Assembly: GCA_030631605.1 (NCBI GenBank)
Contig: DAOVKV010000001.1
Location: forward strand, 1 to 60,361
From: a bacterium
GTDB lineage: Bacteria > Zixibacteria > MSB-5A5 > CAIYYT01
Length of the DNA: 60,361 nucleotides
Reading direction: 5' to 3'
In this document: positions 4,546 to 58,534 of the stretch, piece after piece
How the letters are laid out: each line of letters begins with the position of its first letter
How positions within the stretch are numbered: position 1 is the stretch's first letter
Made by a program: the position numbers and the translations under genes
Notes under the pieces: generated by a model
Told to the model about the DNA's origin: nothing
Databases searched by the model: none
Seen by the model: only the letters and a program-made list of their open reading frames with translations

Positions 4546-5300
4546 TTATTCCCCTCTGCCTTCAGTATCCTGATAGCGGCGACGGCAGCGCCGAAACCAT
4601 TGTCGATATTTACCACCGTAACACCGGAAGCGCAGGAATTCAGCATGGCCAGCAGTGCCGCCACGCCGCCGAAAGAGGCGCCATAACCGACCGAGGTGGG
4701 AACGGCAATTACCGGCGCGTCCACCAGTCCGCCGACAACCGAGGCCAGCGCGCCTTCCATCCCCGCCGCGACGATAATCACTTTCGCCGCCCGCAGTTTT
4801 TCCGATTCAGCCAGGACACGGTGGATTCCAGCCACGCCGACATCGTAGAGCCGTTCGGGAAGATACCCCAGCGCCTCGCAGGTTGTCGCCGCCTCTTCGG
4901 CCACGCCAATATCAGAGGTGCCGGCGGTGATAATGAGAATTCCCGAATCCCGCCTTGGCACTTTCCCCAGCAGTGACGCCGTTCGCGCCTGCTTGTTGTA
5001 AGAGAGCCTGGGCAGTTTTTTCTTCAGGGCGCGAAACATCGTCTCGTCGATCCGCGTGATGAACAGAGGGCCTTTGCGTTCGATAATTTTCTCGGCGATG
5101 GCGATAACCTGTTCCGGCTCCTTGCCGGCGGCGAAGATGACTTCCGGGAAACCACAGCGTGATTCCCGCAGATGATCGATCCGGGCGAAACCGATATCCT
5201 CCAGGTTCAACTCTTCTATCAACTCGGCCGCCATGTTGATCTTGAGAGCGCCGCTTTCCACTTCGAGCAGAATTTTCTTCAGTCTCTCCTTTGTCGTCAT
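4542..5300 (-). CDS. larB: Nickel-pincer cofactor biosynthesis protein LarB (PurE/AIR-carboxylase-like)
   Basis: 252-aa ORF. ARIDHLRESRCGFPEVIFAAGK, ITAGTSDIGVAEEA and GVAGIHRVL...IVAAGMEGALASVVGGL are typical of the LarB / PurE-like fold. Confidence 0.8.
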   Translation of the reverse strand: MTTKERLKKILLEVESGALKINMAAELIEELNLEDIGFARIDHLRESRCGFPEVIFAAGKEPEQVIAIAEKIIERKGPLFITRIDETMFRALKKKLPRLSYNKQARTASLLGKVPRRDSGILIITAGTSDIGVAEEAATTCEALGYLPERLYDVGVAGIHRVLAESEKLRAAKVIIVAAGMEGALASVVGGLVDAPVIAVPTSVGYGASFGGVAALLAMLNSCASGVTVVNIDNGFGAAVAAIRILKAEGNK

Positions 5301-12817: not shown

Positions 12818-12999
12818 TATCCCTCCCAGCTTGAAGGTTACCCAGTAGTCTAACCAATCATTTGTAATTATACACGCGAAAAATGATCTATGTCCAGGTA
12901 TCGGGTCATTTGCCGTTTCAGTTTACGATGTGAACTGGTTATACTTTTCCGGACACACAGATTTGGATAAATTAGAGATTAGACAAGGAGGTGTGTTAA

Positions 13000-13323
13000 G
13001 TGAGTGAAAAGAAGAAGTTACCGACCTATACTGCTGATTTCAAGGAGTCAGCCGTCAAGGTCCGGCCCTGACGGGCGGTACAATTGGCAGTATCGAGTAA
13101 TCAATCAATTGCGCAGACCGCAAGGGAACTGGGAGTCAACCAGAATACGCTTTATACCTGGATTGGGAAGTATCATCATTCCGGTAAAGGTAGTCAGAGC
13201 CAGGTAGACGACGAGCAACTTTATGATAAGCTGAAACGGCTGCAAAGAGAGAACCGTCGTCTCAAGGAGGAGCGAGACATCTTAAAAAAGGCGGCCGCGT
13301 ACTTCGCGAGAGCTGCGGAGTGA
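13000..13323 (+). pseudogene. IS3 orfA (HTH protein) interrupted by an in-frame TGA
   Basis: GTG at 13000 follows AAGGAGG. Reads SEKKKLPTYTADFKESAVKVRP-TGA(13069-13071)-RAVQLAVSSNQSIAQTARELGVNQNTLYTWIGKYH...ILKKAAAYFARAAE. The TGA and the following ORF (13084..13323) are in the same frame. Confidence 0.75.
13284..13290 (+). promoter_or_regulatory. A AAA AAG -1 programmed frameshift heptamer of the IS3 element
   Basis: In the orfA frame the sequence reads tt-A-AAA-AAG-gcg. The -1 frame continues into orfB (KKGGRVLRESCGVRYGFIKQH...). This is the canonical IS3 arrangement. Confidence 0.65.
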
Positions 13324-13529
13324 GGTACGGATTTATCAAGCAGCACAGGATTGAGTTTCATGTGATTCTGATGTGTCAGGTGTTGAGAGTGTCCCGCAGT
13401 GGTTATTACGAGTGGCTGAGACGGCCGGAAAGCAGCCGCCATCGTGAAGACCGACGCTTAAGCCGGGCGATCATGGCAATTCACCGAAGAAGTCGCGCCA
13501 CCTATGGTAGTCGACGTATCAAGGCAGAA

Positions 13530-13543
13530 CCCGCCGCGGCGGG
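13530..13543. repeat. 14-bp perfect palindrome CCCGCCGCGGCGGG, copy 1
   Basis: Read directly from the sequence. It starts on a codon boundary of orfB and shifts the frame by +2. Confidence 0.95.
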
Positions 13544-13997
13544 GGTGAACAGGTGAGCCGCACCCGTATTAGCCGCCTGCTGAAGGAGCAGGGACTCAAG
13601 GTGAAGAGTAGACGCAAGTTCAAAGCCACCACCAACTCGAAACATAAGCTGCCGGTAGCGCCAAACCTTCTTGAGCGGAAGTTCACTGTGGCAGAGCCGA
13701 ATCAGGTTTGGTTATCGGATATCAGCTACATTTGGACTGCTGAGGGTTGGTTATATCTGGCTGGGATTGTTGATCTCTATTCGCGGATAGTGGTTGGCTG
13801 GTCGCTGAACAGGCGAATCACGAAAGAGTTGACGCTCGACGCGTTAAACCAAGCTCTGAAACGCCGTTGTCCCCAGCCGGGTCTTTTACATCACTCTGAT
13901 CGTGGCAGCCAGTATGCGGCTGGTGATTACCAAGACCTGTTACATGACAACAAGATGATTTGCAGTATGAGTCGCAAGGGCGACTGCTGGGATAATG

Positions 13998-14011
13998 CCC
14001 GCCGCGGCGGG
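13998..14011. repeat. 14-bp perfect palindrome CCCGCCGCGGCGGG, copy 2
   Basis: Read directly from the sequence. It sits between CWDNA and SFFATLK, where the catalytic Glu is expected. Confidence 0.95.
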
Positions 14012-14125
14012 TCGTTCTTTGCCACCCTGAAAACAACAGAGTTGGTCTTCCATGAGCAGTTTGCTACTCGCGAAGAGGCTAAACGAAAGATATTTGAGTA
14101 CATTGAGGTGTTTTACAACCGACAA

Positions 14126-14139
14126 CCCGCCGCGGCGGG
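14126..14139. repeat. 14-bp perfect palindrome CCCGCCGCGGCGGG, copy 3
   Basis: Read directly from the sequence. It sits between FYNRQ and HSTIGY and shifts the frame by +2. Confidence 0.95.
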
Positions 14140-14366
14140 CATTCTACTATTGGCTATCAATCACCGGCTGATTATGAAGAAAAGCAGGAGAAAGTCGCGT
14201 GAACCCGTGTCCGGAAAACTCTTGCCAGATCATCACGCCGTCGTCGTCGGTGTCACAGGGGGCGGGTCAAGAGTCTGGCTCTCAAGGCGAACTAAGGTGC
14301 AAAGAATCGGGTGAGAAGCAAGAGAGACTCAAGCCGTCTCAGGAATGTACTTTTCGCTGGGACTTT

Positions 14367-36430: not shown

Positions 36431-36500
36431 GAGGGTGCGGTGCGCCATGGCGCGGAGTCGAATCCTACTCAGTGCAAGGTTGCAGTTGAGAGTTTGCTGA
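36431..36500 (+). other. Conserved upstream element, copy A
   Basis: …GCGCCATGGCGCGGAGTCGAATCCTACTCAGTGCAAGGTTGCAGTTGAGAGTTTGCTGAC. About 85% identical by eye to 42762-42830. Confidence 0.6.
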
Positions 36501-38885: not shown

Positions 38886-39437
38886 ATGAGAACTCTATTC
38901 ACAGCGACGAAACTGGGATTGGTGGCCATGCTGCTCATTGGCAGCCTGACCATTGCCGCAGACAATGCCGGCAATTCAGGCAAACCAGGCACAGAAACTG
39001 AAGCCACACAACCCGGCAGGTTTGGTGAAACGATCGACTGGCAGGTGATCTCCTCCGGCGGTACTGATGGCAGTTCCACCAACTACCAACTGATGGGAAC
39101 GGCAGGACAAACAGCCGTTGGGACAGGTAGCTCGACCAACTACGGCCTGAATCAGGGGTACTGGCAGGAGTTTGCCGTTCAAGAGTGTGACTGTATTCCG
39201 GGCGATGCCGACGGCAATGCTATGATCAATATTGCCGATGTCGTCTATCTGATCAATTTTATTTTCGGTGGCGGCCCTGGGCCGGTACCATACGCCATCT
39301 GTTCCGGCGATGCCGACTGTAACTGCATGGTTAATATCGCCGATGTTGTGTTCCTGATCAGCTTCATCTTCGGAGGTGGCCCCGCGCCGTGCACCTGCGA
39401 GGAGTGGCTGTCTATTTGCGGCCCACCAATGAGATGA
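38886..39437 (+). CDS. Small secreted protein with a C-terminal dockerin-like module
   Basis: Signal/anchor sequence. Two EF-hand-like dockerin repeats, GDADGNAMINIADVVYLINFIF and GDADCNCMVNIADVVFLISFIF, flanked by Cys. GGAAGGAG Shine-Dalgarno. Confidence 0.7.
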   Translation: MRTLFTATKLGLVAMLLIGSLTIAADNAGNSGKPGTETEATQPGRFGETIDWQVISSGGTDGSSTNYQLMGTAGQTAVGTGSSTNYGLNQGYWQEFAVQECDCIPGDADGNAMINIADVVYLINFIFGGGPGPVPYAICSGDADCNCMVNIADVVFLISFIFGGGPAPCTCEEWLSICGPPMR

Positions 39438-39446
39438 CGTAAGTTC

Positions 39447-39484
39447 GCAGGTCGGAACCTCTACGGTTTCGACCTGCTCTTTTC
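39447..39484 (+). terminator. Hairpin plus T-tract after the dockerin gene (also a member of the REP-like stem family)
   Basis: GCAGGTCGGAACC-tctac-GGTTTCGACCTGC followed by TCTTTTC. Confidence 0.55.
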
Positions 39485-39500
39485 ACGCTCCCGCGTGAAT

Positions 39501-39530
39501 GTCGAAAGCGCGGGACTTGTAACCTACAAG
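39501..39530 (-). repeat. REP-like hairpin with GTAG head (copy 3, degenerate stem)
   Basis: Plus strand reads GTCGAAAGC-gcggg-ACTTGTAAC-CTACAAG. Confidence 0.45.
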
Positions 39531-39593
39531 GGCGCAGCGCTATCCCTCTTCAACCCGTGATAGTTTTTGAGGAAAGTCCAACGAAAAAAACCC

Positions 39594-40035: not shown

Positions 40036-42606
40036 ATGAGAAAAGCAGCTTACATTTCGTTGGCTCTGGCGTTGGTGGCGTTTGCCGGGCCGACGGCAGA
40101 TGCCCTGGCCAAAACCGTGAGTCTTTCAACGACTTCGGGCAATGGTGTTGCCAGCACGGCTATTCCGACAATGGGATTAGCCGCTTATTGGCAGTTTGAT
40201 GAAGGAAGTGGAAGCACGGCTTACGATGAAACGTGTAACAATAACGATGGAACAATCAGAGGAGTAAGCTGGACAAATGGCGTCTCTGGGGGTGCTCTGT
40301 ACTTTCACGGCGGGGGACAATGGCATGACGGTGACCGTGTGCTCGTACCACACTCTTCCAGCCTGGATATCACCGGCGAGTTGACCATCACCGCCTGGAT
40401 AAAAGCAACTGGAACAGACAACTACCTGGCAATTGTTGACAAGTTTCGTGGCGGTGCGACAATTCCTTCCTACGGATTTACGCTATATGTCAGTTCGGGA
40501 AGACTCAGACTTTCAATCTACTCTGGTCCTGACGGACACCACGACGGCTGCGTAGGAACATCTGAACTGAGGGACGATACCTGGCATCATGTCGCTGGCG
40601 TATGGGATGGCAGTCATATTAAGGTCTATGTTGACGGGCAACTAGAAAGGGAAGTGGCATGGGCCTTCCCACCAGCTTCAACAACCAATGATCTTGGGAT
40701 TGGCGAACGACCCTACGGCTATGGGGGATATCTGCCATTCCTCGGAGTTATCGATGGGGTCTGTATCTACAAGAAAGCATTGAGCGATACTGAGATAATG
40801 GGGCAGACTGTCGGTAACACAGTCGATTTGACACCCTATTTCGATTGGGGTGCGATCTCCTCCTACGCCGGCTTAGCTCCGCCGGGGTATATGGGAATTT
40901 GGTCCCCCTCTCACAGCATGAACTTCTTTTTCCCCTCGGATTCCTCCGCTCCAGACCCCGCGGGTAATAGTCCCAGGGCGTGGCTCATCCCGGGAGTTCA
41001 CCTGGCCACTTTCTATGGACCTGACAGTGTGTTCATCCCCAGTAATCCTATGGTTATTGTTCCTGACAGATATTCCAAACCTTGTTCCCTCCTCGTGGAG
41101 ATTCCGCCGGCGAATCTCATAGATCAGGCCACTGATTCGAATGTGATCCAAATATCCACAAGTGAGACTAAAACGATACCCCTCAACGACACGGTGGAAA
41201 CCATGGTCTTTCTGGCAAATTGTGACGGGGCCGCCTATTGTAGTCCTGATCAGCCGTTAGAGGTACGGATCAACTATCAGGATGGTACAGCAGATACTGT
41301 GGTCTTCGACAATATCCATCCAGGGGAACGCTCAACTTATGTTTCCGACCCCAACATCATCTGTTACGGCAATGAAGTTTTCGGCTGTGGTCCCTTTTAT
41401 ACTGACTTTCCCCCTCCCTACTCTACCGACTCGCACTCGGAGTTCTGGCACTGGTATACCCTGTACCCGGATAACACTAAGCTGCTCAACAGCATAGCTT
41501 TCGTAGGGATACAAAGTGAACACCCCTCTGAGATTCACATCTCGGCTCTCTCCTACACTAGACCGCTGCCACTTGAATGGGGCGAATCCATAGACAATTC
41601 GGTCGATTTAACACCCTATTTCGATTGGGGTGCAATCTCCTCCTACGCCGGCTTAGCCCCGCCAGGGTTTATCGGAATTTGGTCCCCCTCTCACAGCAGG
41701 TACTTTTATTTCCCCTCTGATTCCCTGGCTCCAGGCATGCCTCCTAATTATCCCCGAGCCTGGCTCGTCCCGGGAGTTCACCTGGCCACTCTCTATGGAC
41801 CTCATAATGTGCTCATTCCCAGTAATCCCATAGTTGCCGTTCCTGACAGAAACTTTAAACCCTGTTCCCTCTTTGTGGCAGTTCCGCCGGCGAATCTCAT
41901 AGATGAGGCAACTGATGTAAATGTGATCCAAATATCCTCGGGTGAGACTAAAACGATAGCCATCAACGACACTGCGGAAACCATGGTCTTTCTGGCAAAT
42001 TGTGACGGGGCCGGCTATTGTAGTCCTGACCAGCCGTTAGAGGTGCGGATCAACTACAATGATGGTACAGTAGATACTGTGACCTTTGCCAATATCCATC
42101 CGGGGGAACGCGCAAATCCCATTTTCTGGGGGCCTTATACGATCTATTGCAATGAAGTTTTCGGCTGCGGTCCCTTTTATAATGACCTTCCCGTTCCCTA
42201 CTCCACCGACTATCACTCGGAGTTCTGGCATTGGTATGCCCTGTATCCGGATAACACCAAGCCCATCAACAGCATAACCTTCGTAGGGATACAGAGTGGA
42301 TACCCCTCTGAGGTTCACATCTCGGCTCTCTCCTACAATAAGCAGAAATGTGACTGCATACCAGGTGATGCTGACGGCAACGGCATTATTAACATCGCCG
42401 ATGTCGTTTATCTGATCAGCTTCATCTTTCTTCCTGGCAGCCCACCGCCGACGCCGTACGCTACCTGTTCCGGCGATGCTGACTGTAACTGTATGGTTAA
42501 CATCTCTGACGTCGTCTACCTGATCAACTTCATCTTCGTTCCTGGCAGCGCACCGCCTTGCACTTGCCAGCAGTGGCTGGCTGCCTGCGGCCCACCACTA
42601 AGATGA
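40036..42606 (+). CDS. Secreted LamG/concanavalin-like protein with a duplicated ~260-aa domain and a C-terminal dockerin-like module
   Basis: ATG 40036 after AAGGAGGAAG; the track start 39928 is unlikely. Signal peptide MRKAAYISLALALVAFAGP. LamG-type segment (LAAYWQFDEGSGSTAYDE...TITAWIKA...DDTWHHVAGVWDG...VYVDG). Two near-identical domains. Dockerin repeats at the C-terminus. Confidence 0.75.
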   Translation: MRKAAYISLALALVAFAGPTADALAKTVSLSTTSGNGVASTAIPTMGLAAYWQFDEGSGSTAYDETCNNNDGTIRGVSWTNGVSGGALYFHGGGQWHDGDRVLVPHSSSLDITGELTITAWIKATGTDNYLAIVDKFRGGATIPSYGFTLYVSSGRLRLSIYSGPDGHHDGCVGTSELRDDTWHHVAGVWDGSHIKVYVDGQLEREVAWAFPPASTTNDLGIGERPYGYGGYLPFLGVIDGVCIYKKALSDTEIMGQTVGNTVDLTPYFDWGAISSYAGLAPPGYMGIWSPSHSMNFFFPSDSSAPDPAGNSPRAWLIPGVHLATFYGPDSVFIPSNPMVIVPDRYSKPCSLLVEIPPANLIDQATDSNVIQISTSETKTIPLNDTVETMVFLANCDGAAYCSPDQPLEVRINYQDGTADTVVFDNIHPGERSTYVSDPNIICYGNEVFGCGPFYTDFPPPYSTDSHSEFWHWYTLYPDNTKLLNSIAFVGIQSEHPSEIHISALSYTRPLPLEWGESIDNSVDLTPYFDWGAISSYAGLAPPGFIGIWSPSHSRYFYFPSDSLAPGMPPNYPRAWLVPGVHLATLYGPHNVLIPSNPIVAVPDRNFKPCSLFVAVPPANLIDEATDVNVIQISSGETKTIAINDTAETMVFLANCDGAGYCSPDQPLEVRINYNDGTVDTVTFANIHPGERANPIFWGPYTIYCNEVFGCGPFYNDLPVPYSTDYHSEFWHWYALYPDNTKPINSITFVGIQSGYPSEVHISALSYNKQKCDCIPGDADGNGIINIADVVYLISFIFLPGSPPPTPYATCSGDADCNCMVNISDVVYLINFIFVPGSAPPCTCQQWLAACGPPLR
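40822..42336 (+). repeat. Intragenic tandem duplication, period 780 nt (units ~40822-41556 and ~41602-42336)
   Basis: The string GTCGATTT(G/A)ACACCCTATTTCGATTGGGGTGC... recurs exactly 780 nt apart. The units stay alignable to ...CACATCTCGGCTCTCTCCTAC. Confidence 0.85.
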
Positions 42607-42615
42607 CGTAAGTTC

Positions 42616-42653
42616 GCAGGTCGGAACCTCTACGGTTTCGACCTGCTCTTTTC
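42616..42653 (+). terminator. Hairpin plus T-tract, near-identical to 39447-39484
   Basis: GCAGGTCGGAACC-tctac-GGTTTCGACCTGC followed by TCTTTTC. Confidence 0.55.
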
Positions 42654-42668
42654 ACGCTTCGCGTGAAT

Positions 42669-42698
42669 GTCAAAAGCGCAGGGCTTTTGACCTACAAG
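42669..42698 (-). repeat. REP-like hairpin with GTAG head (copy 4)
   Basis: Plus strand reads GTCAAAAGC-gcagg-GCTTTTGAC-CTACAAG. Confidence 0.6.
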
Positions 42699-42761
42699 GA
42701 TGCAATCCCTGGGTTGTCACGCTCCAGGAAATCGCGACCCACGGCTTTTCTCACAACCTCA

Positions 42762-42830
42762 GGAGAGGTGCCATGCCGCCGAGTTGAATCCGACTCAGTG
42801 CAAGGTTGTAGTTCAGAATCTGCTTGACAA
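42762..42830 (+). other. Conserved upstream element, copy B
   Basis: …GGTGCCATGCCGCCGAGTTGAATCCGACTCAGTGCAAGGTTGTAGTTCAGAATCTGCTTGAC. Its 3' end overlaps the -35 hexamer of the next promoter. Confidence 0.6.
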
Positions 42831-42915: not shown

Positions 42916-43629
42916 ATGAGAAAAATTCTTGGTAAGTTGTGTTTGGGCATCGTTCTTCTGGCTCTGGTACTCACGCCGGTTGAGCTTTGCGGTCAGTCAT
43001 TCATTTGCGGCGATGTCGATGCGAACAGTATGGTCAATATCGCCGATGTTGTCTATGTAATAACTTATATTTTCGGCGGCGGGCCTTCTCCTGATCCACT
43101 TCTGGCAGGCGATGTCGATTGCGATGGCACGGTGAATATCGCCGATGTGGTGTTCTTGATCAACTACATCTTCGCTGGCGGGCCGGAGCCCTGCGCTGTT
43201 CCGACCGGAATTCTGGTCGACTACGCCGGCTGCAAAACATTCACAAGGGGAAGCGCCGCCGGTAGTACGCCGCCCGATCAGGACTGCATAGAGTATCAGT
43301 ATGATGGAGCAAGAACTCTTCTGCTTAAGCATATAAATGCAGGTTTCAATTGCTGTCCCGTCATTGCGGCTGACATAACCATTGAGGGGAATCTCATAAC
43401 AATACATGAGAGCGAGTCTTTTGATAGCACGGGGCCGTGTTGGTGCCTCTGTCTTTTTGATTTAGACTTGGAAATCAGCAATCTGAGCCCCGGAGAGTAT
43501 ACAATAAGTGTAATCGAGGTATGCACAAATCCAGAGGATGAAATCCTGGAATTCACCGTGAACTTGGTTTCCTCACCTTCAGGCATGTATTGTGTATTCA
43601 GGGATCACTATCCCTGGGGTTTCTATTGA
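42916..43629 (+). CDS. Secreted protein with an N-terminal dockerin-like module and a Cys-rich C-terminal domain
   Basis: ATG 42916 after AAGGAGGGAGG. Signal peptide MRKILGKLCLGIVLLALVLTPVELCG. Dockerin repeats GDVDANSMVNIADVVYVITYIF and GDVDCDGTVNIADVVFLINYIF follow the signal peptide directly. Confidence 0.7.
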   Translation: MRKILGKLCLGIVLLALVLTPVELCGQSFICGDVDANSMVNIADVVYVITYIFGGGPSPDPLLAGDVDCDGTVNIADVVFLINYIFAGGPEPCAVPTGILVDYAGCKTFTRGSAAGSTPPDQDCIEYQYDGARTLLLKHINAGFNCCPVIAADITIEGNLITIHESESFDSTGPCWCLCLFDLDLEISNLSPGEYTISVIEVCTNPEDEILEFTVNLVSSPSGMYCVFRDHYPWGFY

Positions 43630-43640
43630 TACCTGTGCGC

Positions 43641-43672
43641 GGCAGGTCTCCCGACCTGCCCGTCCGTTTTTT
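43641..43672 (+). terminator. Rho-independent terminator
   Basis: GGCAGGTC-tccc-GACCTGCC followed by CGTCCGTTTTTT. Confidence 0.65.
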
Positions 43673-43700
43673 GCAGGTCGGAACCCTTACGATTTCGACA

Positions 43701-43847
43701 AACTGGTAACCCGCGCAGCGGGTGGGCTTGAGTGATTGTGCCTGAAATGCTTGTCTCAATCAGTACCATTTATCTTCCCGATCTCAAAGTGTTGGTATCA
43801 GCATCTCAGGCAACGCCTGAGGAACTCACCTGTTAGGTGGGGTACCG
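43701..43847 (+). repeat. ~147-bp hairpin-ended repeat, copy C1 (complete)
   Basis: AACTGGTAACCCGCGCAGCGGGTGGGCTTGAGTGATTGTGCCTGAAATGCTTGTCTCAATCAGTACCAT...CTCACCTGTTAGGTGGGGTACCG. It ends 14 nt before the protease ATG. Confidence 0.85.
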
Positions 43848-43861
43848 AGTGAGATAGCCGC

Positions 43862-44617
43862 ATGAGATTCCGAAAGAAGAACATGGATCAAACTCGAAAG
43901 ACAGAAGAGGGGGTGTTCCACCTCGAAACTCGTGTGTTTCCGCTACTGGATGTTAAGGAGAGCATTGGTGGCGCTCCCCCCACTGTTGAGTACAAGGGCA
44001 CCTGCTTCTTGATGATGATAGGGCAGCAGCACGTCTTTGTAACTGCCAAGCACCTACTCCAAGAGACCCCCGACAAGTACAACCTCTACATAGGTTACAA
44101 TACTCCGGCAGGACAGTCGTCTTTACTCAAGGTCAGCGCTGCTTATGTTAACCATCTCAACGAGGATATTTCGTTTTTCCTGCCCACTGCCCGAATGAAG
44201 AAGAAGTATAACCATCTGCTTGTTCCCATGAAACTACTCAGGCACCCTCTGCCCGTTGGTCAGGGCGTATTGGTCTATGGGTTCCCTAACAGTGGTCAGC
44301 AAGGTGGCCGCAGAGACATACCCGTTGTGAATATTCAGAGGACAAGGCATGAGGGGAAGGTAGTCAGAGTCGACCACGACTGTCCACTACCGCCGATGAA
44401 GACCGTGTACCAATTGGCCCTCCCATCTCCAAAGGGGCTAAGTGGTGCGCCGGTGATGGTAGTGCATAATAACACTTTGGCCGTTGCTGGTTACATTATC
44501 GGCGAGCAAACAACCAATGGCAAGTCGGTTGCTATCGCTACTGACTTCACCCCATTGGTCGAGATAGAGCAACTGTTGATCGATGTAAGTCGCAAACGGG
44601 CATCCGGAAACGAATAA
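43862..44617 (+). CDS. Trypsin-like (S1/Trypsin_2-type) serine protease without a signal peptide
   Basis: 251-aa ORF. Candidate catalytic triad: His in FVTAKHLL, Asp in NEDISFF, Ser in PKGLSGAPVMV. The N-terminus is hydrophilic. The Shine-Dalgarno is weak and the start is uncertain. Confidence 0.7.
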   Translation: MRFRKKNMDQTRKTEEGVFHLETRVFPLLDVKESIGGAPPTVEYKGTCFLMMIGQQHVFVTAKHLLQETPDKYNLYIGYNTPAGQSSLLKVSAAYVNHLNEDISFFLPTARMKKKYNHLLVPMKLLRHPLPVGQGVLVYGFPNSGQQGGRRDIPVVNIQRTRHEGKVVRVDHDCPLPPMKTVYQLALPSPKGLSGAPVMVVHNNTLAVAGYIIGEQTTNGKSVAIATDFTPLVEIEQLLIDVSRKRASGNE

Positions 44618-44755
44618 GCTATCAATGCGTGTCGGCGTCACACGCTCAGGCTGTTGGCCAGGCTGAGCTGGTCGACCGTCATACTCTGATGCTGGCTGTT
44701 GGGCTATGCCGTCCTGGATGTCGATGAGGCGGGCTGTTCGCGTGAAGTGTTTCAA

Positions 44756-44880
44756 AACTGGTAACCCACTCAGTGGGTGGGCTTGAGTGATTGTGTCTGA
44801 AATGCTTGTCTCAATCAGTACCATCTCTCTTCCCTAAATCTCAAAGTTTTGGTATCAGCATCTCAGGCAACGCTTAAGGT
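44756..44880 (+). repeat. ~147-bp hairpin-ended repeat, copy C2 (3' hairpin missing)
   Basis: AACTGGTAACCCACTCAGTGGGTGGGCTTGAGTGATTGTGTCTGAAATGCTTGTCTCAATCAGTACCAT...GGCAACGCTTAAGG. Confidence 0.85.
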
Positions 44881-45037
44881 AATTACAAGGCCGTCTATTC
44901 CATAATACTTCATGTGTGGCTCGCCGTGGCGAGTTCACACCTCCACGTGCGTATGATATTTTATGGCAGTGGGTCTGAAGACCCACCGATCACAACGTAC
45001 GAAACCATTGTCGAAACCACGTCTCGCTTATGTATAA

Positions 45038-45529
45038 TTACTCGGTTTTCGATTGGGCTGTTTTCAGAACATAAAATACCGTATTCTCACCCGGCTTTTC
45101 CGCAAATTCCTTGTACCGCTTGTGAGTGGGCGAGTAACGCAACTCCAGTGTATCAGCAGTGTGAAATCGAAAAATACAGAAAAGCGTTGTCCATTCCGAA
45201 CCGGGGCCACCGCATTCACCGACACAAAGATCGAGAGCATACGGCGATTGCGCCATATCAAGTTTATACGGGCCGGTGACAGAGGCATCGACATCACTCC
45301 GAATATAGGTGCCGTCCTCACGCACGATCAGACCGACATGGTGTGTCGAATCTGTCGATATCACTGTCCACTCGCCAATCAGGTTCGGTTCAGCGGCAGG
45401 TGTTACTTCAGCCGGCGCGCTTTTCTCCTGTGCCGATGTGTCGGCTTTTTGGTCAGATGACTGCCCGCAGGCAGCAAACATCAAAACAACGAGAATCAAA
45501 ATTCCTGTGAAATTCGTTCTCTTTTTCAT
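45038..45529 (-). CDS. Hypothetical lipoprotein (164 aa)
   Basis: Start moved to ATG 45529 (MKKRTNFTGILILVVLMFAACGQSS, a lipobox) after GAGGGA. The N-terminal 50 aa of the track ORF derive from repeat C3. Confidence 0.6.
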   Translation of the reverse strand: MKKRTNFTGILILVVLMFAACGQSSDQKADTSAQEKSAPAEVTPAAEPNLIGEWTVISTDSTHHVGLIVREDGTYIRSDVDASVTGPYKLDMAQSPYALDLCVGECGGPGSEWTTLFCIFRFHTADTLELRYSPTHKRYKEFAEKPGENTVFYVLKTAQSKTE

Positions 45530-45609
45530 GGTACGTCCCTCATGTGTAACTAAACCAAAGGTTTTTGTTCTATCTTTTTTAAATATAGAACGATTTATCC
45601 GCAAATGGC

Positions 45610-45760
45610 AACTGGTAACCCACTCGGCGGGTGGGCCTCGAGTGATTGTGCCTGAAATGCTTGTTTCAATCAGTACCATCTCTCTCCCCTAAATCTCAAA
45701 GTGTTGGTATCAACATCTCGGGCAACGCCTAAGGAACCCACCTGTAAGGTGGGGTACCGG
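45610..45760 (+). repeat. ~147-bp hairpin-ended repeat, copy C3 (complete)
   Basis: AACTGGTAACCCACTCGGCGGGTGGGCCTCGAGTGATTGTGCCTGAAATGCTTGTTTCAATCAGTACCAT...CCCACCTGTAAGGTGGGGTACCGG. Confidence 0.85.
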
Positions 45761-45849
45761 TGTCGTTTTGGGCACAGCAATTAACGGACTGAAGATACAC
45801 AAATGAGAAGCGCCTGTCAACTCTTTTATTAACAGGCGCTTATAGTTAT

Positions 45850-45925
45850 TGGTAGCCCTAGGGGGAATCGAACCCCCGTTTGATGGCTGAGAACCACCCG
45901 TCCTAGACCACTAGACGATAGGGCC
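45850..45925 (-). tRNA. tRNA-Glu (anticodon CTC), CCA encoded
   Basis: Hand-folded from the reverse complement GGCCCTATCGTCTAGTGGTCTAGGACGGGTGGTTCTCAGCCATCAAACGGGGGTTCGATTCCCCCTAGGGCTACCA. Anticodon loop TTCTCAG. T-arm GGGGG-TTCGATT-CCCCC. There is a G1-U72 wobble. Confidence 0.85.
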
Positions 45926-46005
45926 GAATACTCTTCTCTGTGGTCGGCTGCCATCGGCAGATTCTCGATGTCGTCACCTGGCAGCCGACACCTTCCACGC
46001 CTGGT

Positions 46006-46033
46006 ATTATAATCATTCGCGACCGGTTTTCAA
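46006..46033 (-). promoter_or_regulatory. Sigma-70-type promoter for tRNA-Glu, TTGAAA-N16-TATAAT (minus strand)
   Basis: The reverse complement reads TTGAAAaccggtcgcgaatgatTATAAT. It lies ~75 nt upstream of the mature tRNA 5' end. Confidence 0.45.
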
Positions 46034-46316
46034 GATAATTCTCGAACCGCTGTCAGCAAGATATCAAGCGACTCTTTCGCGCGGTATCTTCTTGATGATA
46101 TCCTTTACCCTCTGAGTAAATGATGTTTCCATCTGCTCGGTTTCAACCTACGGTTGTATCTCGCCACAGGTTTCAGTCCATCAACGGATTCTCTTTCCCC
46201 ACCATAAATGGTGGGCCACCTGTCCTCCATTCAAGAACCGCTCCGGTGAATCAAACGCTCAGCGGGATACGGACTGTTCGCAGAACCCACCAGCCGCTTC
46301 GCTGGTGGGCTACCGG

Positions 46317-47000
46317 CTAGTTGTCTAGTCGACGTCCTGACATGTCAGTTCTGACTTTCCGTGCACCAAAGTCTGAGAAGCTGCACAAATCAATGAACTT
46401 TTTACCTATGGCTTGGTGCATAGCGATCCAAGTTAAATCTGTTACTCCAGAGTACACATACTGCGCCGCGACGCGAGGTTGATGTGGCCTGTTGACCCCC
46501 GTGATGACCAACAACCTGCCTGACTGCCTGTACCAAACTACATCGTCGGTGAATTCCTCCGTCGGCAATATTACTTCCGTTCGTCTTATCTTAAGGATGT
46601 CAAACTCAGTACCCTGATTGATGACTTCTACGACCTTGTTTATCACTGCTGTGTCATTACAATTTATCTTTTTCTCACAAACCGGGAACTTGCCGATGTC
46701 ATACGACACAACTATGGGCTCTCTAACTTCGCTAGATGCCTCGGAACCAGAGGAGTCACCGTACGACGGGAATATGGGCTCTCTGGCTTCACTAAATACG
46801 TCAGAGCCAGAGGAGTCTCCATACGACATGACTATGGGCTCTCTGACTTCACGAGAAACTGCAGAGCCGGAGGAGTCACCGCCTTCCTTCCGTCCACAGC
46901 TGAAAACCATTAGCAAAGAGAGAAGTCCGCCAAGCGCCACCCCACAAGTATGAAACCCATTACAATACCTTCTCTCAAGTGAGAACTTCATACGTTCCAT
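46317..47000 (-). CDS. Hypothetical lipoprotein with three tandem 20-aa repeats
   Basis: 227-aa ORF with LLSLLMVFSCGRKEGG (lipobox-like). Repeats read REPI(V/F)xSYGDSSGSxxxSE(V/A). No family recognised. Confidence 0.5.
   Translation of the reverse strand: MERMKFSLERRYCNGFHTCGVALGGLLSLLMVFSCGRKEGGDSSGSAVSREVREPIVMSYGDSSGSDVFSEAREPIFPSYGDSSGSEASSEVREPIVVSYDIGKFPVCEKKINCNDTAVINKVVEVINQGTEFDILKIRRTEVILPTEEFTDDVVWYRQSGRLLVITGVNRPHQPRVAAQYVYSGVTDLTWIAMHQAIGKKFIDLCSFSDFGARKVRTDMSGRRLDN
46714..46893 (-). repeat. 3 x 60-nt in-frame tandem repeat
   Basis: ATGGGCTCTCT recurs at 46714, 46774 and 46834, a period of exactly 60 nt. Confidence 0.85.
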
Positions 47001-56363: not shown

Positions 56364-57077
56364 TTAAATACTCAATCTTGTCGGCATCCGCGTCTGGCAG
56401 GAATGATCCTGACAGGCAGCACAAAATGGATAGGAGTCGGCAATAACAAACAGACCAGGCGCGCCTGCCAGCAGCACTCCGGAGACAGATTTCAACGGCT
56501 CCATCAGGAAACTTGATCGCAAGGTGATACCGATCTCCTCAGGTTGCAGGTAAGCAAACAGGCGCTTCTGCCCACTGATATGCCAGCCGCAGTAGCCGGG
56601 GCTGAAACGTGATGCTGCCATCGTTGTCATAGTCTGTTGTCTTTTCACGAGATTTTCAAGGAAGCGATACTCAATATCAGCGGCGGCGCGGTCGGCAGCG
56701 GCTGATGCAACTGCATCAAGCAGCGAACCGAGCGCAAACTCTCTCGTTTGGAAAAGCTCGCTAATTTTCGTCTCGACATCGTGACCGATGGTCACGGCAA
56801 AAAGAGCAAGACACTCTGCTTGGGGATATATCTCAGCAACAGGCGTGACCGGTTCATTGCGGCCTTCGCCTGCATAGATTTTCTCAAACTCAAGGGTGGA
56901 TATTTCGGCCATTATCGCCACCGGTCGGGCTAATTGCTCAAATAGAGTGAAAGCATCGTCAAGGAGACCAATGATTCTATCATCAGGTTTTTCCGCCGCA
57001 GGTATGCCCTGGGCTTGTAGTACTTCTGCTTCTTCTGGAAGAACACCTCGTACAGGCAGTGAAACAATCTTCTTCAT
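56364..57077 (-). CDS. Methionine-synthase activation-domain-like protein (Met_synt_B12 family)
   Basis: 237-aa ORF. RFSPGYCGWHISGQKRLFAYLQPEEIGITLRSSFLMEPLKSVSGV matches the PGY..W...Q..LF...IG..L.....M.P.KSVS pattern of the MetH reactivation domain. C-terminal CAACQDHSC. Confidence 0.65.
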   Translation of the reverse strand: MKKIVSLPVRGVLPEEAEVLQAQGIPAAEKPDDRIIGLLDDAFTLFEQLARPVAIMAEISTLEFEKIYAGEGRNEPVTPVAEIYPQAECLALFAVTIGHDVETKISELFQTREFALGSLLDAVASAAADRAAADIEYRFLENLVKRQQTMTTMAASRFSPGYCGWHISGQKRLFAYLQPEEIGITLRSSFLMEPLKSVSGVLLAGAPGLFVIADSYPFCAACQDHSCQTRMPTRLSI

Positions 57078-58534
57078 GTTGTCTGATCGGGCAAGTGTTC
57101 CATGCCGTGACGGTGCGCTTCCCTCTGCATCAAGCGCGTCAGCTCTTTCTTACAATCATCAGGCAGACGGGAGGGTCGGTATTCCGTTAGCAGTTTGCTT
57201 ACTTCCTGAGCGGCACGCTGCCGCAAGGTAAAGCCGCCCTCTTCCTGCCAGCGTGACTTGTTGGCACGGTTGATGACCGGGCCAGGGAAATAGTGTTCAT
57301 CGCGGAGGTATCGTTGCGAGTGTTCCGAAATCAGCAGATGTTTCTCCTTAAGCAGTTCCTCGAAGCGAGGCAACGCCGGAAAATCCTCTTTCGGTTCGAT
57401 CCCCTTGAGCATACGCAGGGTCATGCCGCAGATCTCGTTGTCGACAACCAGCTTTTCCAGGCTCTGGCAACTTTCAAAGTCGATCATCCCGGGCCCGGAG
57501 ATGTTGTTAATGCCTGCTAACGCCGCCAGGGTCGCTCCCATCGAGGTCTCCAAACCGGCTTGCGCATCGAGCGCATTGGCGTCACTCAAACCGATGTAAG
57601 CCTGAGTCGGCAGACCGAGATGTTTGCCGATCTCGTTGTGGGCGCAGTCGATCATCATCGTCTCCACCGCACCCATCGGGGTGGTTTCATAGCGAACGTC
57701 GAAGACAGCAGGCGAACCGCCGTAAAGAGCGGGCGCGCCAGGATTGGTCAACTGGCTGATGACAATGCCGGAAAGCGTTTCCGCCGTGTGCTGTACCAGT
57801 GTCCCCACCAGTGTCACCGGCGCCATGAAACCGGAAAGAGGCATTGAGATATACTCGACCGGAATCCCGTAGCGGGCGCAGTCAACCAGGTTTTGCGAAG
57901 TGACATCACTCCACTTTAAGGGTGCCGTCGGACAGACCGAAAAGATGGTCAGGGGTCTTTCTTTTAATCCCGATTCACTGCCGCGCACCGCCAGTTGCAG
58001 TTCTTTCATAATCGTGAATGCCTCAATGGTGAAAGCGCCGGTCACCACCGGTTTCTCGCAGTGCAGCAGACTGAGGTAGAGACGGTAACTGTCGGAGACC
58101 TGTGCGTTCACGTCGGTCGGGATCAGGGCGGTGCTCTGGGAAGCGATATGGTTAAGCCTGCTTACCAGTTTGGTATACTTGATATAGTCGGCGCTGGTCG
58201 GAGGACGCATTTCCCCTGTCTCATTGTCCAGGATTGTTATCGCCGCGGAACCGGGAGTGAAGTGAACATTGTCGCCGCTGAAATCATGAGTCTCATTGCC
58301 CAGGACATCATAGAGTTTGAATGAGTGACATGCGGTTTTCAAGGCGTTGTCGATGATTCCATCTGTCAAGATGGCATGATGTTTCTCGAGATCAATAGTC
58401 GCGCCATGATCAGCCAGCATTTTCAGGATATCCTGGTTATGGATATCCAGTCCCGGACGGCAGAGGAGTATTCGCGCCTCTCTGACGATCTGCTCAATGA
58501 GATCATCACTTAAGAACTTAAGCTTTGGTCGCAC
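57074..58534 (-). CDS. MttB-superfamily (trimethylamine methyltransferase family) protein, non-pyrrolysine type
   Basis: 486-aa uninterrupted ORF with no in-frame TAG. GTG start after GGAGG. N-terminal FLSDDLIEQIVREARILLCRPGLDIHNQDILKMLADHGA and overall length are typical of the MttB family. ATGA-type 4-nt overlap with the next gene. Confidence 0.8.
   Translation of the reverse strand: MRPKLKFLSDDLIEQIVREARILLCRPGLDIHNQDILKMLADHGATIDLEKHHAILTDGIIDNALKTACHSFKLYDVLGNETHDFSGDNVHFTPGSAAITILDNETGEMRPPTSADYIKYTKLVSRLNHIASQSTALIPTDVNAQVSDSYRLYLSLLHCEKPVVTGAFTIEAFTIMKELQLAVRGSESGLKERPLTIFSVCPTAPLKWSDVTSQNLVDCARYGIPVEYISMPLSGFMAPVTLVGTLVQHTAETLSGIVISQLTNPGAPALYGGSPAVFDVRYETTPMGAVETMMIDCAHNEIGKHLGLPTQAYIGLSDANALDAQAGLETSMGATLAALAGINNISGPGMIDFESCQSLEKLVVDNEICGMTLRMLKGIEPKEDFPALPRFEELLKEKHLLISEHSQRYLRDEHYFPGPVINRANKSRWQEEGGFTLRQRAAQEVSKLLTEYRPSRLPDDCKKELTRLMQREAHRHGMEHLPDQTT

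What the first reader, a model, noticed from the sequence alone, without database searches (positions are those of the whole stretch)
43701..45760. Three direct copies of a ~147-bp hairpin-ended repeat bracket a protease gene and a lipoprotein gene next to tRNA-Glu
C1 (43701-43847), C2 (44756-44880, 3' end missing) and C3 (45610-45760) all lie in the same orientation. I estimate they are ~85-90% identical by eye. They alternate with two unrelated genes of opposite orientation. The array ends ~90 bp from tRNA-Glu.

- The 5' hairpin shows compensatory change between copies: ACCCGC-gca-GCGGGT in C1, ACCCAC-tca-GTGGGT in C2, and ACCCAC-tcg-GCGGGT in C3 with one mismatch.
- The complete copies (C1, C3) end with a second hairpin, (C/T)CCACC-tgt(t/a)a-GGTGGG, followed by GTACCG.
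- The two termini are imperfect inverted repeats of each other (CTGGTAACCCAC versus CGGTACCCCAC). They can therefore pair locally or with each other.
- A central TGATTG...CAATCA stem is invariant.
- More diverged CCCACC/GGTGGG hairpins occur at 44970-44990, 46198-46220 and 46283-46316.

The layout looks like gene cassettes separated by recombination sites, or like MITE/PATE-type non-autonomous elements. A repeated structured RNA is also possible. There is no integrase, transposase or reverse transcriptase in the window. I cannot match the repeat to any family I know.
Basis: seen in the sequence. Interest (0 to 1): 0.7.

Follow-up and report, generated by a model that had tools for sequence, protein, structure and literature searches.

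The report
Three REPIN copies beside tRNA-Glu
The three ~150-bp repeats are copies of a REPIN, a small non-autonomous mobile element made of two inverted REP hairpins; the same REP hairpins are scattered through Zixibacteria genomes and flank a dedicated REP-associated transposase gene there, so this is a known kind of element in a phylum where I found no description of it.

Summary
C1 (43701-43851), C2 (44756-~44880, 3' end missing) and C3 (45610-45762) are co-oriented and 88-89% identical. Their flanks are unrelated, and the 60-kb window holds no other copy.

Each end of the repeat is a REP unit, G-GTA(A/C/G)-CCCAC…GTGGG, with the tetranucleotide tag facing outward. The two units are separated by a conserved, self-pairing spacer of 98-101 nt. 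This is the architecture of a REPIN, also called a "head-head" GTAG-REP dimer.

- One variant of this REP matched at least 120 stretches of GTDB genomes (about 4 expected by chance), most of them in Zixibacteria MAGs and spread along megabase contigs.
- In two Zixibacteria MAGs the same REPs flank a 165-182-aa gene. The L081 copy passes NCBIfam's "REP-associated tyrosine transposase" model (105.6 bits, cut-off 80).
- In L064 a ~145-nt REP doublet with the same left-end REP lies next to that gene.

No such transposase (RAYT) is in the window, so mobilisation in trans is inferred, not shown. The integron attC, DDE-type MITE, tRNA-att and Rfam RNA readings failed their tests. The verdict is a new member of a known kind, of low to moderate interest. 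The tight local clustering and a recurrent REP-protease adjacency remain unexplained.

The parts
43701..43851 (+). C1, a complete REPIN copy. The left REP is at 43706-43726: tag GTAA, stem CCCGCGC/GGGTGGG. The spacer is 43727-43824 (98 nt). The right REP is at 43825-45 on the - strand: tag GTAC, stem CCCACC/GGTGAG.
   Evidence: As RNA the + strand folds into one long rod, -56.1 kcal/mol, z = -3.45.
44756..44880 (+). C2, a REPIN copy whose right REP has been deleted. The left REP is at 44761-44781: GTAA-CCCACTC-AGT-GGGTGGG.
   Evidence: The covariance model scores it 157 bits.
45610..45762 (+). C3, a complete REPIN copy. The left REP is at 45615-45635. The spacer is 45636-45736 (101 nt). The right REP is at 45737-45757 on the - strand: GTAC-CCCACC-TTACA-GGTGGG.
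   Evidence: It folds as RNA at -58.8 kcal/mol, z = -4.0, and as ssDNA at -26.3 kcal/mol, z = -3.5.
46198..46219 (-). Single REP unit, GTGG-CCCACCATTTATGGTGGG.
   Evidence: The identical unit GGTGGCCCACCATTTATGGTGGG is found in six other loci fetched from Zixibacteria MAGs, and once more with a GTAG tag.
46286..46313 (-). Single REP unit, GTAG-CCCACCAGC-GAAGCG-GCTGGTGGG, preceded by CCG on its own strand.
43883..44617 (+). Trypsin-like serine protease gene between C1 and C2. An upstream in-frame ATG at 43862 is also possible.
   Evidence: Pfam Trypsin and Trypsin_2, both weak. It has 23 homologues. In five other contexts a REP unit lies within 60 nt upstream of the homologue's start, or within 200 nt in L004.
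44630..44755 (-). Decayed C-terminal fragment of a tyrosine recombinase (…LKHF.T…SPTASIRV*, with frameshifts), convergent with the protease gene. Its truncation point is the left end of C2.
   Evidence: Translations. DNA homology to L003 runs past the protease stop codon. The L003 fragment NLGHSTLRVTERYVHV… hits only HP1 integrase, XerA and XerD C-termini in the PDB. Similar fragments are seen in L004 and L015.
45038..45529 (-). 163-aa putative lipoprotein gene between C2 and C3.
   Evidence: signal-peptide-like N-terminus with Cys. No Pfam family. It is unrelated to the small genes that neighbour the protease homologues elsewhere.
45850..45925 (-). tRNA-Glu (CUC). Its 3' end faces C3.
   Evidence: No second copy of its 3' part exists in the window.
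43670..43699 (+). Third copy of a terminator-type hairpin module, also present at 39444-39473 and 42613-42642. It is cut off inside its 3' arm exactly where C1 begins.

Best explanation
C1, C2 and C3 are copies of a REPIN. A REPIN is a non-autonomous element built from two REP (repetitive extragenic palindrome) units in inverted orientation, with their tetranucleotide tags facing outward. Here the two units are separated by a conserved spacer of about 100 nt that itself base-pairs, so the single strand folds into one long hairpin. The REP units belong to a family, G-GTA(A/C/G)-CCCAC…GTGGG, that is multi-copy and dispersed in Zixibacteria genomes and that flanks the RAYT gene (REP-associated tyrosine transposase, a Y1/HUH enzyme) in those genomes.

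**Shown here**
- The anatomy of the three copies.
- The identity of the end hairpins with the Zixibacterial REP family.
- The RAYT association in related genomes.
- The mostly extragenic position of the family.
- The precise element boundaries with unrelated flanks and no target-site duplication.

**Inferred from the E. coli and Pseudomonas literature**
- A RAYT encoded elsewhere in this genome recognises the folded REP on single-stranded DNA.
- The RAYT uses the tag as a guide and cuts and rejoins the strand, so that doublets are excised and inserted without target duplication.
- The shared orientation of the three copies would follow from strand-specific insertion on one replichore.

Under this reading the layout that looks like 'gene cassettes' is three independent insertions, or local copying, into the intergenic gaps of a small variable region next to tRNA-Glu. 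One copy (C2) later lost its right end.
For: 1. **The ends are REP units.** The left units are at 43706, 44761 and 45615 (+). The right units are at 43825-45 and 45737-57 (-). All have G at position -1 and a GTAA or GTAC tag next to a CCCAC…GTGGG stem-loop.
2. **The REP family is abundant and dispersed.**
My estimate of the chance expectation is about 4. Most of the matched records are titled Zixibacteria/Zixiibacteriota MAGs, with many hits per genome spread along contigs of 1-1.6 Mb.
   - In those loci I counted 165 units with tags GTAC 69, GTAG 54, GTAA 37 and GTAT 5, and with G at position -1 in 71%.
   - Only 30% of units lie inside long ORFs, against 79% of random positions.
3. **The family is associated with RAYT.**
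   - In L081 a 165-aa ORF scores 105.6 bits against NCBIfam NF047646 'REP-associated tyrosine transposase' (cut-off 80) and also matches Pfam Y1_Tnp. It is flanked by inverted REPs at 4093-4114(+) and 4656-4677(-).
   - RAYT homologues are present in seven more REP-bearing loci.
4. **A RAYT-adjacent doublet resembles C.**
   - In L064 the RAYT is flanked by GTAA-CCCACCC-AGC-GGGTGGG, the same REP variant as the left end of C.
   - Next to it lies a ~145-nt tags-outward doublet whose first ~60 nt align to C1 at 77% (E = 2e-6). It folds as one hairpin with z = -6.7.
   - Heterodimeric doublets with the same left REP occur in L027 and L034.
5. **The single REP at 46198 recurs elsewhere.** It is identical to units in six other Zixibacteria loci.
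6. **The layout matches published descriptions.**
   - Di Nocera et al. 2013 (PMC3733652) describe dimers with tags outside, spacers of 20-100 bp that are conserved in such dimers, folding into one large stem-loop, and frequent heterodimers.
   - Bertels & Rainey (PMC3337134) describe REPINs with REP spacings up to 104-112 nt and RAYT genes flanked by REPINs.
7. **The boundaries look like insertion ends.** Similarity between copies stops a few bases outside the tags. The flanks are unrelated and there is no target-site duplication. C1 interrupts a copy of a local terminator module.
Against: - No RAYT gene or RAYT remnant is in the 60-kb window. The rest of the genome could not be reached, so a cognate transposase in this organism is unproven.
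- All eight REP units of the window (seven at sequence level, because C2's right unit is deleted) lie within 2.6 kb, and the other 57 kb hold none that is convincing. For a dispersed element that is a strikingly local distribution.
- The exact 147-nt element was not found anywhere else. A 22-mer from its core gave 0 hits in GTDB genomes, JGI metagenomes and IMG/VR.
- The spacer's similarity to the L064 spacer alone is not significant: 57 of 500 shuffles score as high.
- The fourth tag base varies (A/C/G). In the E. coli system every tag base was needed for cleavage (PMC3479197).
- Mobility itself (excision, empty sites) was not observed.
Confidence: 0.8

Rival explanations
1. The repeats are recombination sites of a cassette array: integron-like attC sites, or att sites left by small elements that integrated one after another at tRNA-Glu. 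A tyrosine recombinase would then exchange whole repeat-gene units.
For: - The three copies are co-oriented and alternate with single genes at spacings of 1055 and 854-855 bp.
- The array lies next to a tRNA gene, and a tyrosine-recombinase fragment abuts C2.
- Homologues of the protease sit in many different contexts, several of them next to tRNA genes and defence-type genes.
- The single strand folds with paired termini, as attC sites do.
Against: - The termini (CTGGTAAC… and …GGTACCG) do not fit the attC core sites RYYYAAC and GTTRRRY (sequence).
- The two genes have opposite orientation.
- There is no IntI-type or any intact tyrosine recombinase in the window.
- The recombinase fragment is found beside the protease gene in L003, L004 and L015, none of which has the repeat.
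- The repeat does not contain any part of the tRNA.
- The ends are units of a RAYT-associated REP family whose stem extension and loop vary from 3 to 14 nt between units. That fits hairpin recognition and does not fit a fixed-spacer duplex core site.
Confidence: 0.06
2. The repeats are three paralogous genes for a ~150-nt structured RNA, or cis-acting RNA elements in the untranslated regions of the neighbouring genes.
For: - The + strand folds better than the - strand (z = -3.5 and -4.0 against -2.1), and several differences between copies are wobble-compatible only on the + strand.
- C1 ends 30-35 nt before the protease start codon.
- C3 lies on the path of a predicted promoter that reads towards the lipoprotein gene.
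- Published work notes that REPs are often transcribed and can act as RNA elements (PMC3733652).
Against: - No Rfam family matches, even at E up to 10.
- The flanks are unrelated, so there is no shared upstream promoter, and none is predicted inside the repeat.
- No terminator follows the repeat.
- Covariation cannot be assessed with three near-identical copies.
- The orientation relative to neighbouring genes is inconsistent: C1 is sense-upstream, C2 is downstream, and C3 is antisense-upstream.
- An RNA role would be secondary to the DNA-level identity as REP doublets and is not an alternative to it.
Confidence: 0.05
3. The copies arose by local segmental duplication or unequal recombination, not by transposition. 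A single resident REP doublet was copied within this variable region.
For: - All copies lie within 2.1 kb, and none is found elsewhere in 60 kb or in the public collections.
- The neighbourhood is rich in duplicated promoter and terminator modules.
- Tandemly reiterated REPINs with flanking DNA are described in the literature.
Against: - Similarity stops exactly at the REP outer ends in all three copies, and no flanking DNA is co-duplicated.
- The copies differ from each other by about 11-12%, so they are not recent duplicates.
Confidence: 0.05
4. The repeat is a classical MITE derived from the IS3-family element at 12.9-14.2 kb and is mobilised by its DDE transposase.
For: - An IS3-family element is present in the window.
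- Its left inverted repeat, TGAACTGGTTATAC…, shares the heptamer AACTGGT with the left end of the repeat.
Against: - There is no target-site duplication around C1 or C3.
- The repeat does not begin with the IS3-type TG, and similarity to the IS terminal repeat is limited to 7-9 nt.
- The ends are REP hairpins with a RAYT association instead.
Confidence: 0.02

Closest known systems
REPINs of Pseudomonas fluorescens SBW25 (Bertels & Rainey 2011; PMC3116915, PMC3337134)
   Same: - Two REP units lie in inverted orientation.
- The spacer pairs with itself, so the element forms one long hairpin.
- The REP-to-REP spacing of 98-101 nt lies just below the longest SBW25 spacing classes (104-112 nt).
- The elements are extragenic.
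- The cognate REPs flank a RAYT gene; here this is seen in related genomes L081 and L064.
   Different: - The REP sequence and phylum differ (Zixibacteria).
- The two REPs of the doublet are different variants (a heterodimer), whereas SBW25 REPINs are formed from REPs of one group.
- Only three copies were seen, and they are tightly clustered.
- Copy number, RAYT presence in this genome and excision were not observed.
GTAG-tagged REP families and their 'HH' dimers (Di Nocera et al. 2013; PMC3733652)
   Same: - Each unit is a short stem-loop with an unpaired tetranucleotide tag at one foot.
- The dimers carry their tags outside.
- Spacers of 20-100 bp are conserved in such dimers.
- Heterodimers and G·T pairs in stems are common.
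- The units are mostly intergenic.
   Different: - The fourth tag base is freely A, C or G here (GTAN, with some GTGG). In the published families the variation is mainly at tag positions 2-3.
- The paper's abstract names Proteobacteria, Cyanobacteria and Planctomycetes among its 8 phyla. I did not check its full species list for Zixibacteria.
E. coli REP/BIME with TnpA-REP (Messing et al. 2012; PMC3479197)
   Same: A hairpin plus a 5' tetranucleotide guide is recognised by a Y1/HUH enzyme. That is the mechanistic model I apply here.
   Different: - The E. coli enzyme needs GTAG and cleaves at CT.
- The cleavage dinucleotide for GTAA or GTAC tags is unknown.
- E. coli BIME spacers are much shorter.
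IS200/IS605-derived PATEs (palindrome-associated transposable elements)
   Same: They are non-autonomous, carry hairpins at both ends, make no target-site duplication and are served in trans by a Y1 transposase.
   Different: PATE end hairpins have the same orientation on one strand, and insertion occurs next to a fixed tetra- or pentanucleotide. Here the end units are inverted relative to each other, and the left flanks share no motif.
Chromosomal integron attC arrays (for example Vibrio VCRs) and CALINs
   Same: Co-oriented ~120-150-bp repeats with imperfectly inverted ends alternate with genes of ~0.5-1 kb, and the repeats fold as single strands.
   Different: - The attC core sites are absent.
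- No IntI integrase is present.
- Gene orientation is mixed.
- The ends belong to a RAYT-associated REP family.

Membership tests
REP (tagged repetitive extragenic palindrome) | Short (20-40 nt) imperfect palindrome forming a stem-loop | tested here: met
   The left units read CCCACTC-AGT-GGGTGGG and the right units read CCCACC-TGTAA-GGTGGG. Single units lie at 46198 and 46286.
REP (tagged repetitive extragenic palindrome) | Conserved unpaired tetranucleotide tag (GTAG or a degenerate form) at the 5' foot of the hairpin | tested here: met
   The window units carry GTAA, GTAC, GTAG and GTGG. Across 165 units from related genomes the tags are GTAC 69, GTAG 54, GTAA 37 and GTAT 5, with G at -1 in 71%. 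The fourth base is more variable than in published families.
REP (tagged repetitive extragenic palindrome) | Many copies dispersed over the genome, mostly extragenic (tested in related genomes) | tested here: met
   At least 120 stretches matched one variant, with many hits per Zixibacteria MAG spread along megabase contigs. 30% of units lie inside long ORFs against 79% of random positions.
REP (tagged repetitive extragenic palindrome) | Many copies dispersed over this organism's own genome | tested here: inconclusive
   Only 60 kb is available. All units are extragenic but confined to 43.7-46.3 kb. The rest of the assembly could not be reached.
REP (tagged repetitive extragenic palindrome) | The same REPs flank a RAYT gene | tested here: inconclusive
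   Met in related genomes: L081 (NF047646, 105.6 bits against a cut-off of 80, with inverted REPs on both sides) and L064. Not met inside the window, which has no RAYT or remnant. Not testable for the rest of this genome.
REPIN (REP doublet forming a hairpin) | [quoted passage not shown] | tested here: met
   The tags face outward and the spacers are 98 and 101 nt. Rod-like folds have z = -3.5 to -4.0 as RNA and z = -3.5 as ssDNA.
REPIN (REP doublet forming a hairpin) | The doublet, not the single REP, is the repeated unit: copies share the spacer and end at the REP outer feet | tested here: met
   The three copies are 88-89% identical across the spacer, and the flanks are unrelated.
REPIN (REP doublet forming a hairpin) | Evidence of mobility (excision products, empty sites, insertion polymorphism) | not testable with these tools
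   No reads or sister strains are available. The closest relative locus, L001, shares only the protease ORF.
Integron attC site / CALIN | Core sites R'' (RYYYAAC) and R' (GTTRRRY) at the two ends | tested here: not met
   The ends read TGGTAAC… and …GGTACCG, matching at most 3-4 of the 7 positions of each core site.
Integron attC site / CALIN | Match to the attC covariance model (IntegronFinder) | not testable with these tools
   That model is not available here. Rfam has no hit.
Integron attC site / CALIN | IntI integrase with attI next to the array. CALINs by definition lack a nearby integrase, so this row bears on complete integrons only. | tested here: not met
   The only recombinase sequence is a ~35-40-codon C-terminal fragment of a tyrosine recombinase. 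It is also found beside the protease gene in other genomes.
DDE-type MITE | Terminal inverted repeats matching an autonomous IS, and target-site duplications | tested here: not met
   No duplication is present at C1 or C3. Only a heptamer is shared with the IS3 terminal repeat.
att repeats of tRNA-integrated islands | The direct repeat contains the 3' part of the target tRNA gene | tested here: not met
   The 25-nt 3' end of tRNA-Glu occurs once in the window with up to 3 mismatches. The repeat lies 88-90 bp outside the tRNA.
Any described RNA family (Rfam 15) | Covariance-model match | tested here: not met
   No hit on the repeats at the gathering threshold or at E up to 10.

The most novel reading that the evidence does not exclude
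The REP/REPIN copies may be more than passengers. They may act as the ends of gene-sized mobile units, so that a gene bracketed by two REPs or REPINs is moved or exchanged as a cassette, either by the RAYT or by recombination between REPs.

This would explain three observations:
- A REP unit lies within 60 nt upstream of the trypsin-like protease gene in the window and four other contexts, and within 200 nt in a sixth.
- The REP variants differ between those contexts.
- In the window the REPINs alternate with single genes at a tRNA-linked variable spot that also carries a conserved recombinase fragment.
Probability: 0.1. Interest if true: 0.6.

Novelty: new member of a known kind. Interest (0 to 1): 0.22.

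Why it matters
REP/REPIN-RAYT systems have been characterised mainly in Proteobacteria. Here a clear REP family, with its RAYT gene and REPIN-type doublets, turns up in Zixibacteria, an uncultured FCB-group phylum. My full-text search for 'Zixibacteria' together with 'RAYT' returned nothing relevant by title.

For annotation, this means a puzzling 'cassette array' can be labelled as mobile-element debris. It also gives a simple motif, G-GTAN-CCCAC…GTGGG, for masking or tracking these elements in Zixibacteria MAGs.

The free fourth tag base is a small mechanistic curiosity, because in E. coli the third and fourth tag bases are thought to pair with the cleavage dinucleotide. The recurrent REP-protease adjacency could become more interesting if REP pairs turn out to move genes.

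Tried and rejected
- **Rfam.** Searches at the gathering threshold and at E up to 10 found nothing on the repeats.
- **Exact core 22-mer.** It gave 0 hits in GTDB genomes, JGI metagenomes and IMG/VR. A left-end pattern gave 0 hits in IMG/VR.
- **blastn of C3.** Searches against plasmids and phages found nothing meaningful.
- **Source contig.** Look-ups by exact protein did not reach it, and the cluster look-up returned no accession.
- **Covariance model R1.** On the protease-homologue loci it gave only a weak hit to a single hairpin. That hit was nevertheless the lead to the REP family.
- **Duplicated protease promoter or leader.** I tested whether the repeat is a copy of the protease promoter or leader. 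Local alignments to the upstream regions of ten homologues were no better than shuffles beyond the terminal hairpin, so I rejected the idea.
- **A diverged fourth doublet at 46195-46320.** I rejected this because both hairpins there have the same orientation, so they are two single units.
- **tRNA-Glu att duplication.** None was found.
- **Tandem ~1056-bp periodicity.** The spacings 42613→43670 and 43701→44756 suggested it, but the intervening sequences are unrelated genes, so I rejected it.
- **Simple insertion of C1 into the terminator module.** The missing 3' part of the module is not found after C1 or after C3.
- **RAYT pseudogene in the window.** tblastn with seven RAYTs gave no hit better than E = 0.085, and none near the repeats.
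- **Homology among the small neighbouring genes.** The lipoprotein is not related to the small genes next to protease homologues elsewhere.
- **Pfam on the recombinase fragment.** It found nothing because the fragment is too short. A PDB sequence search did identify it.
- **Protease alignment against JGI metagenomes.** It added only two loci.

Full report
**1. The observation.**
Reading 43400-46500 and running the repeat finder confirm three co-oriented copies. C1 is at 43701-43851, C2 at 44756-~44880 and C3 at 45610-45762. Global pairwise identities are 87.7-89.1%. A 40-nt core matches three times with at most 1 mismatch, against none in shuffles. A covariance model built from the three copies finds nothing else in the whole window with filters off. 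C2 lacks the 3' hairpin. tRNA-Glu (CUC) is at 45850-45925 on the - strand, 88-90 bp from C3. Flanks outside the copies are unrelated, and I see no target-site duplication.

The + strand folds into one long rod: -56 and -59 kcal/mol as RNA with z = -3.5 and -4.0, and z = -3.5 as ssDNA. The - strand folds less well. With three sequences it is no better than shuffles, 332 of 500, and the family-wide register is a different one.

**2. Surroundings.**
Pfam scans of the likely genes show an ordinary chromosomal stretch. The best homologues of its DUF401 protein are named Zixibacteria and are 62-74% identical. The window is an NCBI contig of exactly this length.

- An IS3-family element lies at about 12931-14232.
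- Directly left of C2 on the - strand lies a decayed fragment of the last ~35-40 codons of a tyrosine recombinase. Its counterpart in locus L003 reads NLGHSTLRVTERYVHVDDSDLRSAYERF…. In the PDB that sequence matches only the C-termini of HP1 integrase, XerA and XerD.

The same fragment follows the protease gene in L004 and L015, next to tRNA genes, and those loci do not carry the 147-nt repeat. The fragment is therefore linked to the protease gene rather than to the repeat.

C1 begins exactly where a third copy of a local terminator module is cut off. This marks C1's left end as an insertion or rearrangement breakpoint.

**3. Looking for relatives.**
Rfam has no match. A 22-mer from the core gave no exact match in GTDB genomes, JGI metagenomes or IMG/VR, and plasmid and phage blastn gave nothing.

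The lead came from the contexts of protease homologues. Many of them carry short hairpins of the form CCCAC…GTGGG followed by (C/T/G)TAC, often CCGG-proximal. These are the same motifs as the two ends of the repeat. Read on the appropriate strand, each is G-GTA(N)-CCCAC-(variable paired extension and loop)-GTGGG. That is the signature of tagged REP elements (PMC3733652).

In the window such units occur only at 43.7-46.3 kb. They are the left ends of C1-C3 (+), the right ends of C1 and C3 (-), and two single units at 46198 and 46286 (-).

**4. The family test.**
I scanned GTDB genomes for one variant seen in three relatives, GTANCCCACRGCWWGCYGTGGG. My estimate of the chance expectation is about 4 hits. 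The matches are overwhelmingly in Zixibacteria MAGs, with many per genome, spread along contigs of 1-1.6 Mb.

The loci contain 165 units in all. The tag counts are GTAC 69, GTAG 54, GTAA 37 and GTAT 5, and G precedes the tag in 71% of units. Stem variants include paired changes such as AGC/GCT, GGC/GCC, CGC/GCG and ACC/GGT. Only 30% of units lie inside long ORFs, against 79% of random positions. The single unit at 46198 (GTGG-CCCACCATTTATGGTGGG) is identical to units in six other loci.

**5. The transposase link.**
In L081 (Zixibacteria AUK044) a 165-aa ORF lies between inverted REPs at 4093-4114(+) and 4656-4677(-). It has the HUH and Y motifs and scores 105.6 bits against NCBIfam NF047646 'REP-associated tyrosine transposase' (cut-off 80). 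It also matches Pfam Y1_Tnp. phmmer finds homologues in seven further REP-bearing loci and none in the window. tblastn finds no remnant in the window.

In L064 the RAYT is flanked by GTAA-CCCACCC-AGC-GGGTGGG, the same variant as the left end of C1-C3. Next to it lies a ~145-nt tags-outward doublet. Its first ~60 nt align to C1 at 77% (E = 2e-6), and it folds as one hairpin with z = -6.7. L027 and L034 carry heterodimeric doublets with the same left REP.

**6. Interpretation.**
The repeat is a REP doublet with tags outside ('HH' in Di Nocera's terms) and a conserved, structured spacer of 98-101 nt. That makes it a REPIN. The published descriptions fit:
- Spacers are 20-100 bp and are conserved in HH dimers.
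- The dimer folds into one large stem-loop.
- Heterodimers are frequent.
- REP spacings reach 104-112 nt.
- RAYT genes are flanked by REPINs.

The mechanism is inferred from the E. coli system (PMC3479197). A Y1/HUH enzyme binds the folded REP on single-stranded DNA, uses the tag as a guide and cleaves a nearby dinucleotide. Excision and insertion leave no target duplication. What I could not show is a RAYT in this genome, copies elsewhere in it, or movement.

**7. What remains odd.**
- All REP units of the window sit within 2.6 kb, interleaved with a protease gene, a recombinase fragment and a lipoprotein gene, next to a tRNA.
- Protease homologues have a REP unit within 60 nt upstream in the window, L001, L007, L008 and L016, and within 200 nt in L004. 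The REP variants and the genomic contexts differ between these cases.
- In contrast, about 53 kb of DUF401-anchored loci from related contigs hold one unit, and the protease is absent from the 120 REP-selected loci.

The simplest reading is that such variable, tRNA-linked spots accumulate REPs. A more novel reading is that REP pairs delimit movable gene units. That reading is not excluded, and I give it about 10%.

**8. Rivals.**
- Integron attC or cassette array: the core sites are not met, there is no IntI, gene orientation is mixed, and the recombinase fragment is linked to the protease gene elsewhere.
- DDE-type MITE: there are no duplications, and only a heptamer is shared with the IS3 terminal repeat.
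- tRNA att repeats: there is no tRNA sequence in the repeat.
- Structured RNA genes: there is no Rfam hit, no shared promoter or terminator, and the orientation relative to neighbouring genes is inconsistent.
- Local duplication without transposition: this remains possible for the origin of the three copies. However, the copies end precisely at the REP feet and differ by about 11-12%.

**9. Verdict.**
The finding is a real feature, correctly seen. It is best explained as three REPIN copies plus two single REPs of a RAYT-associated REP family that is widespread in Zixibacteria. It is a new member of a known kind, and its interest is low to moderate.

Noticed in passing
window 12931-14232: This is an IS3-family element with 26-nt terminal inverted repeats, an HTH_Tnp_1 orfA and an rve orfB. 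It carries three copies of the perfect 14-bp palindrome CCCGCCGCGGCGGG (at 13530, 13998 and 14126) inside the transposase reading frames, where they are translated as PAAAG or RRGG in place of conserved IS3 residues. Two of them form 22-nt inverted arms 106 nt apart. The palindrome occurs nowhere else in the window.
   Followed up: partly
window 44630-44755; L003 10789-10910; L004 ~3350-3470; L015 ~2900-3060: The same short C-terminal fragment of a tyrosine recombinase (from the LGHS motif to the stop codon) lies convergent right after the trypsin-like protease gene in four diverged genomes. In three of the four (window, L004, L015) a tRNA gene lies nearby; the L003 contig shows none. The fragment appears cut at the same motif in the window and in L003. 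Why such a fragment is kept is unexplained.
   Followed up: partly
window 43825-43883; L001 2428-2463; L007 19-93; L008 2846-2921; L016 4060-4092; L004 2399-2614: A REP unit sits just upstream of the protease start codon in six of eleven independent contexts. The REP variants differ between contexts, and four of the six have the tag facing the gene.
   Followed up: partly
window 36444-36498, 39269-39536, 42435-42824, 43670-43699: The dockerin-bearing secreted-protein genes share duplicated 3' ends, a terminator hairpin (100% identical at 39444 and 42613) and an upstream segment (85%). This suggests a locally amplified gene family with common promoter and terminator modules.
   Followed up: partly
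window 57490-57589 (- strand), inside ORF 57074-58534: Rfam PYLIS_3 (the pyrrolysine insertion element of mttB) matches at 39.8 bits, just above its gathering score of 38. The MttB-family ORF is uninterrupted, with no in-frame UAG. The hit therefore looks like coding-sequence homology in a non-pyrrolysine MttB homologue, which lies next to B12-binding corrinoid protein genes.
   Followed up: partly
L081 4093-6515: A Zixibacteria MAG contig carries two identical RAYT genes, each flanked by inverted REPs, in a 1838-bp tandem repeat. RAYTs are described as single-copy in the literature. An assembly artefact is not excluded.
   Followed up: no
loci L025, L033, L046, L048 (Ignavibacteria); L021, L038, L070, L094 (Dehalococcoidia); L036, L058, L096 (Pasteurellaceae): The same 22-nt REP variant also matches in Ignavibacteria, Dehalococcoidia and a few Pasteurellaceae genomes. 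I did not examine whether this reflects shared REP/RAYT lineages, horizontal transfer, mis-binned contigs or chance.
   Followed up: no
L007 852-1729: Next to one protease homologue lies an orphan Rhs-type C-terminal toxin fragment (…DPIGFAGGLNLYGYAGNNPINYIDPLG…) followed by a weak Imm32-like gene. The downstream REP of the protease lies inside the start of that fragment.
   Followed up: no
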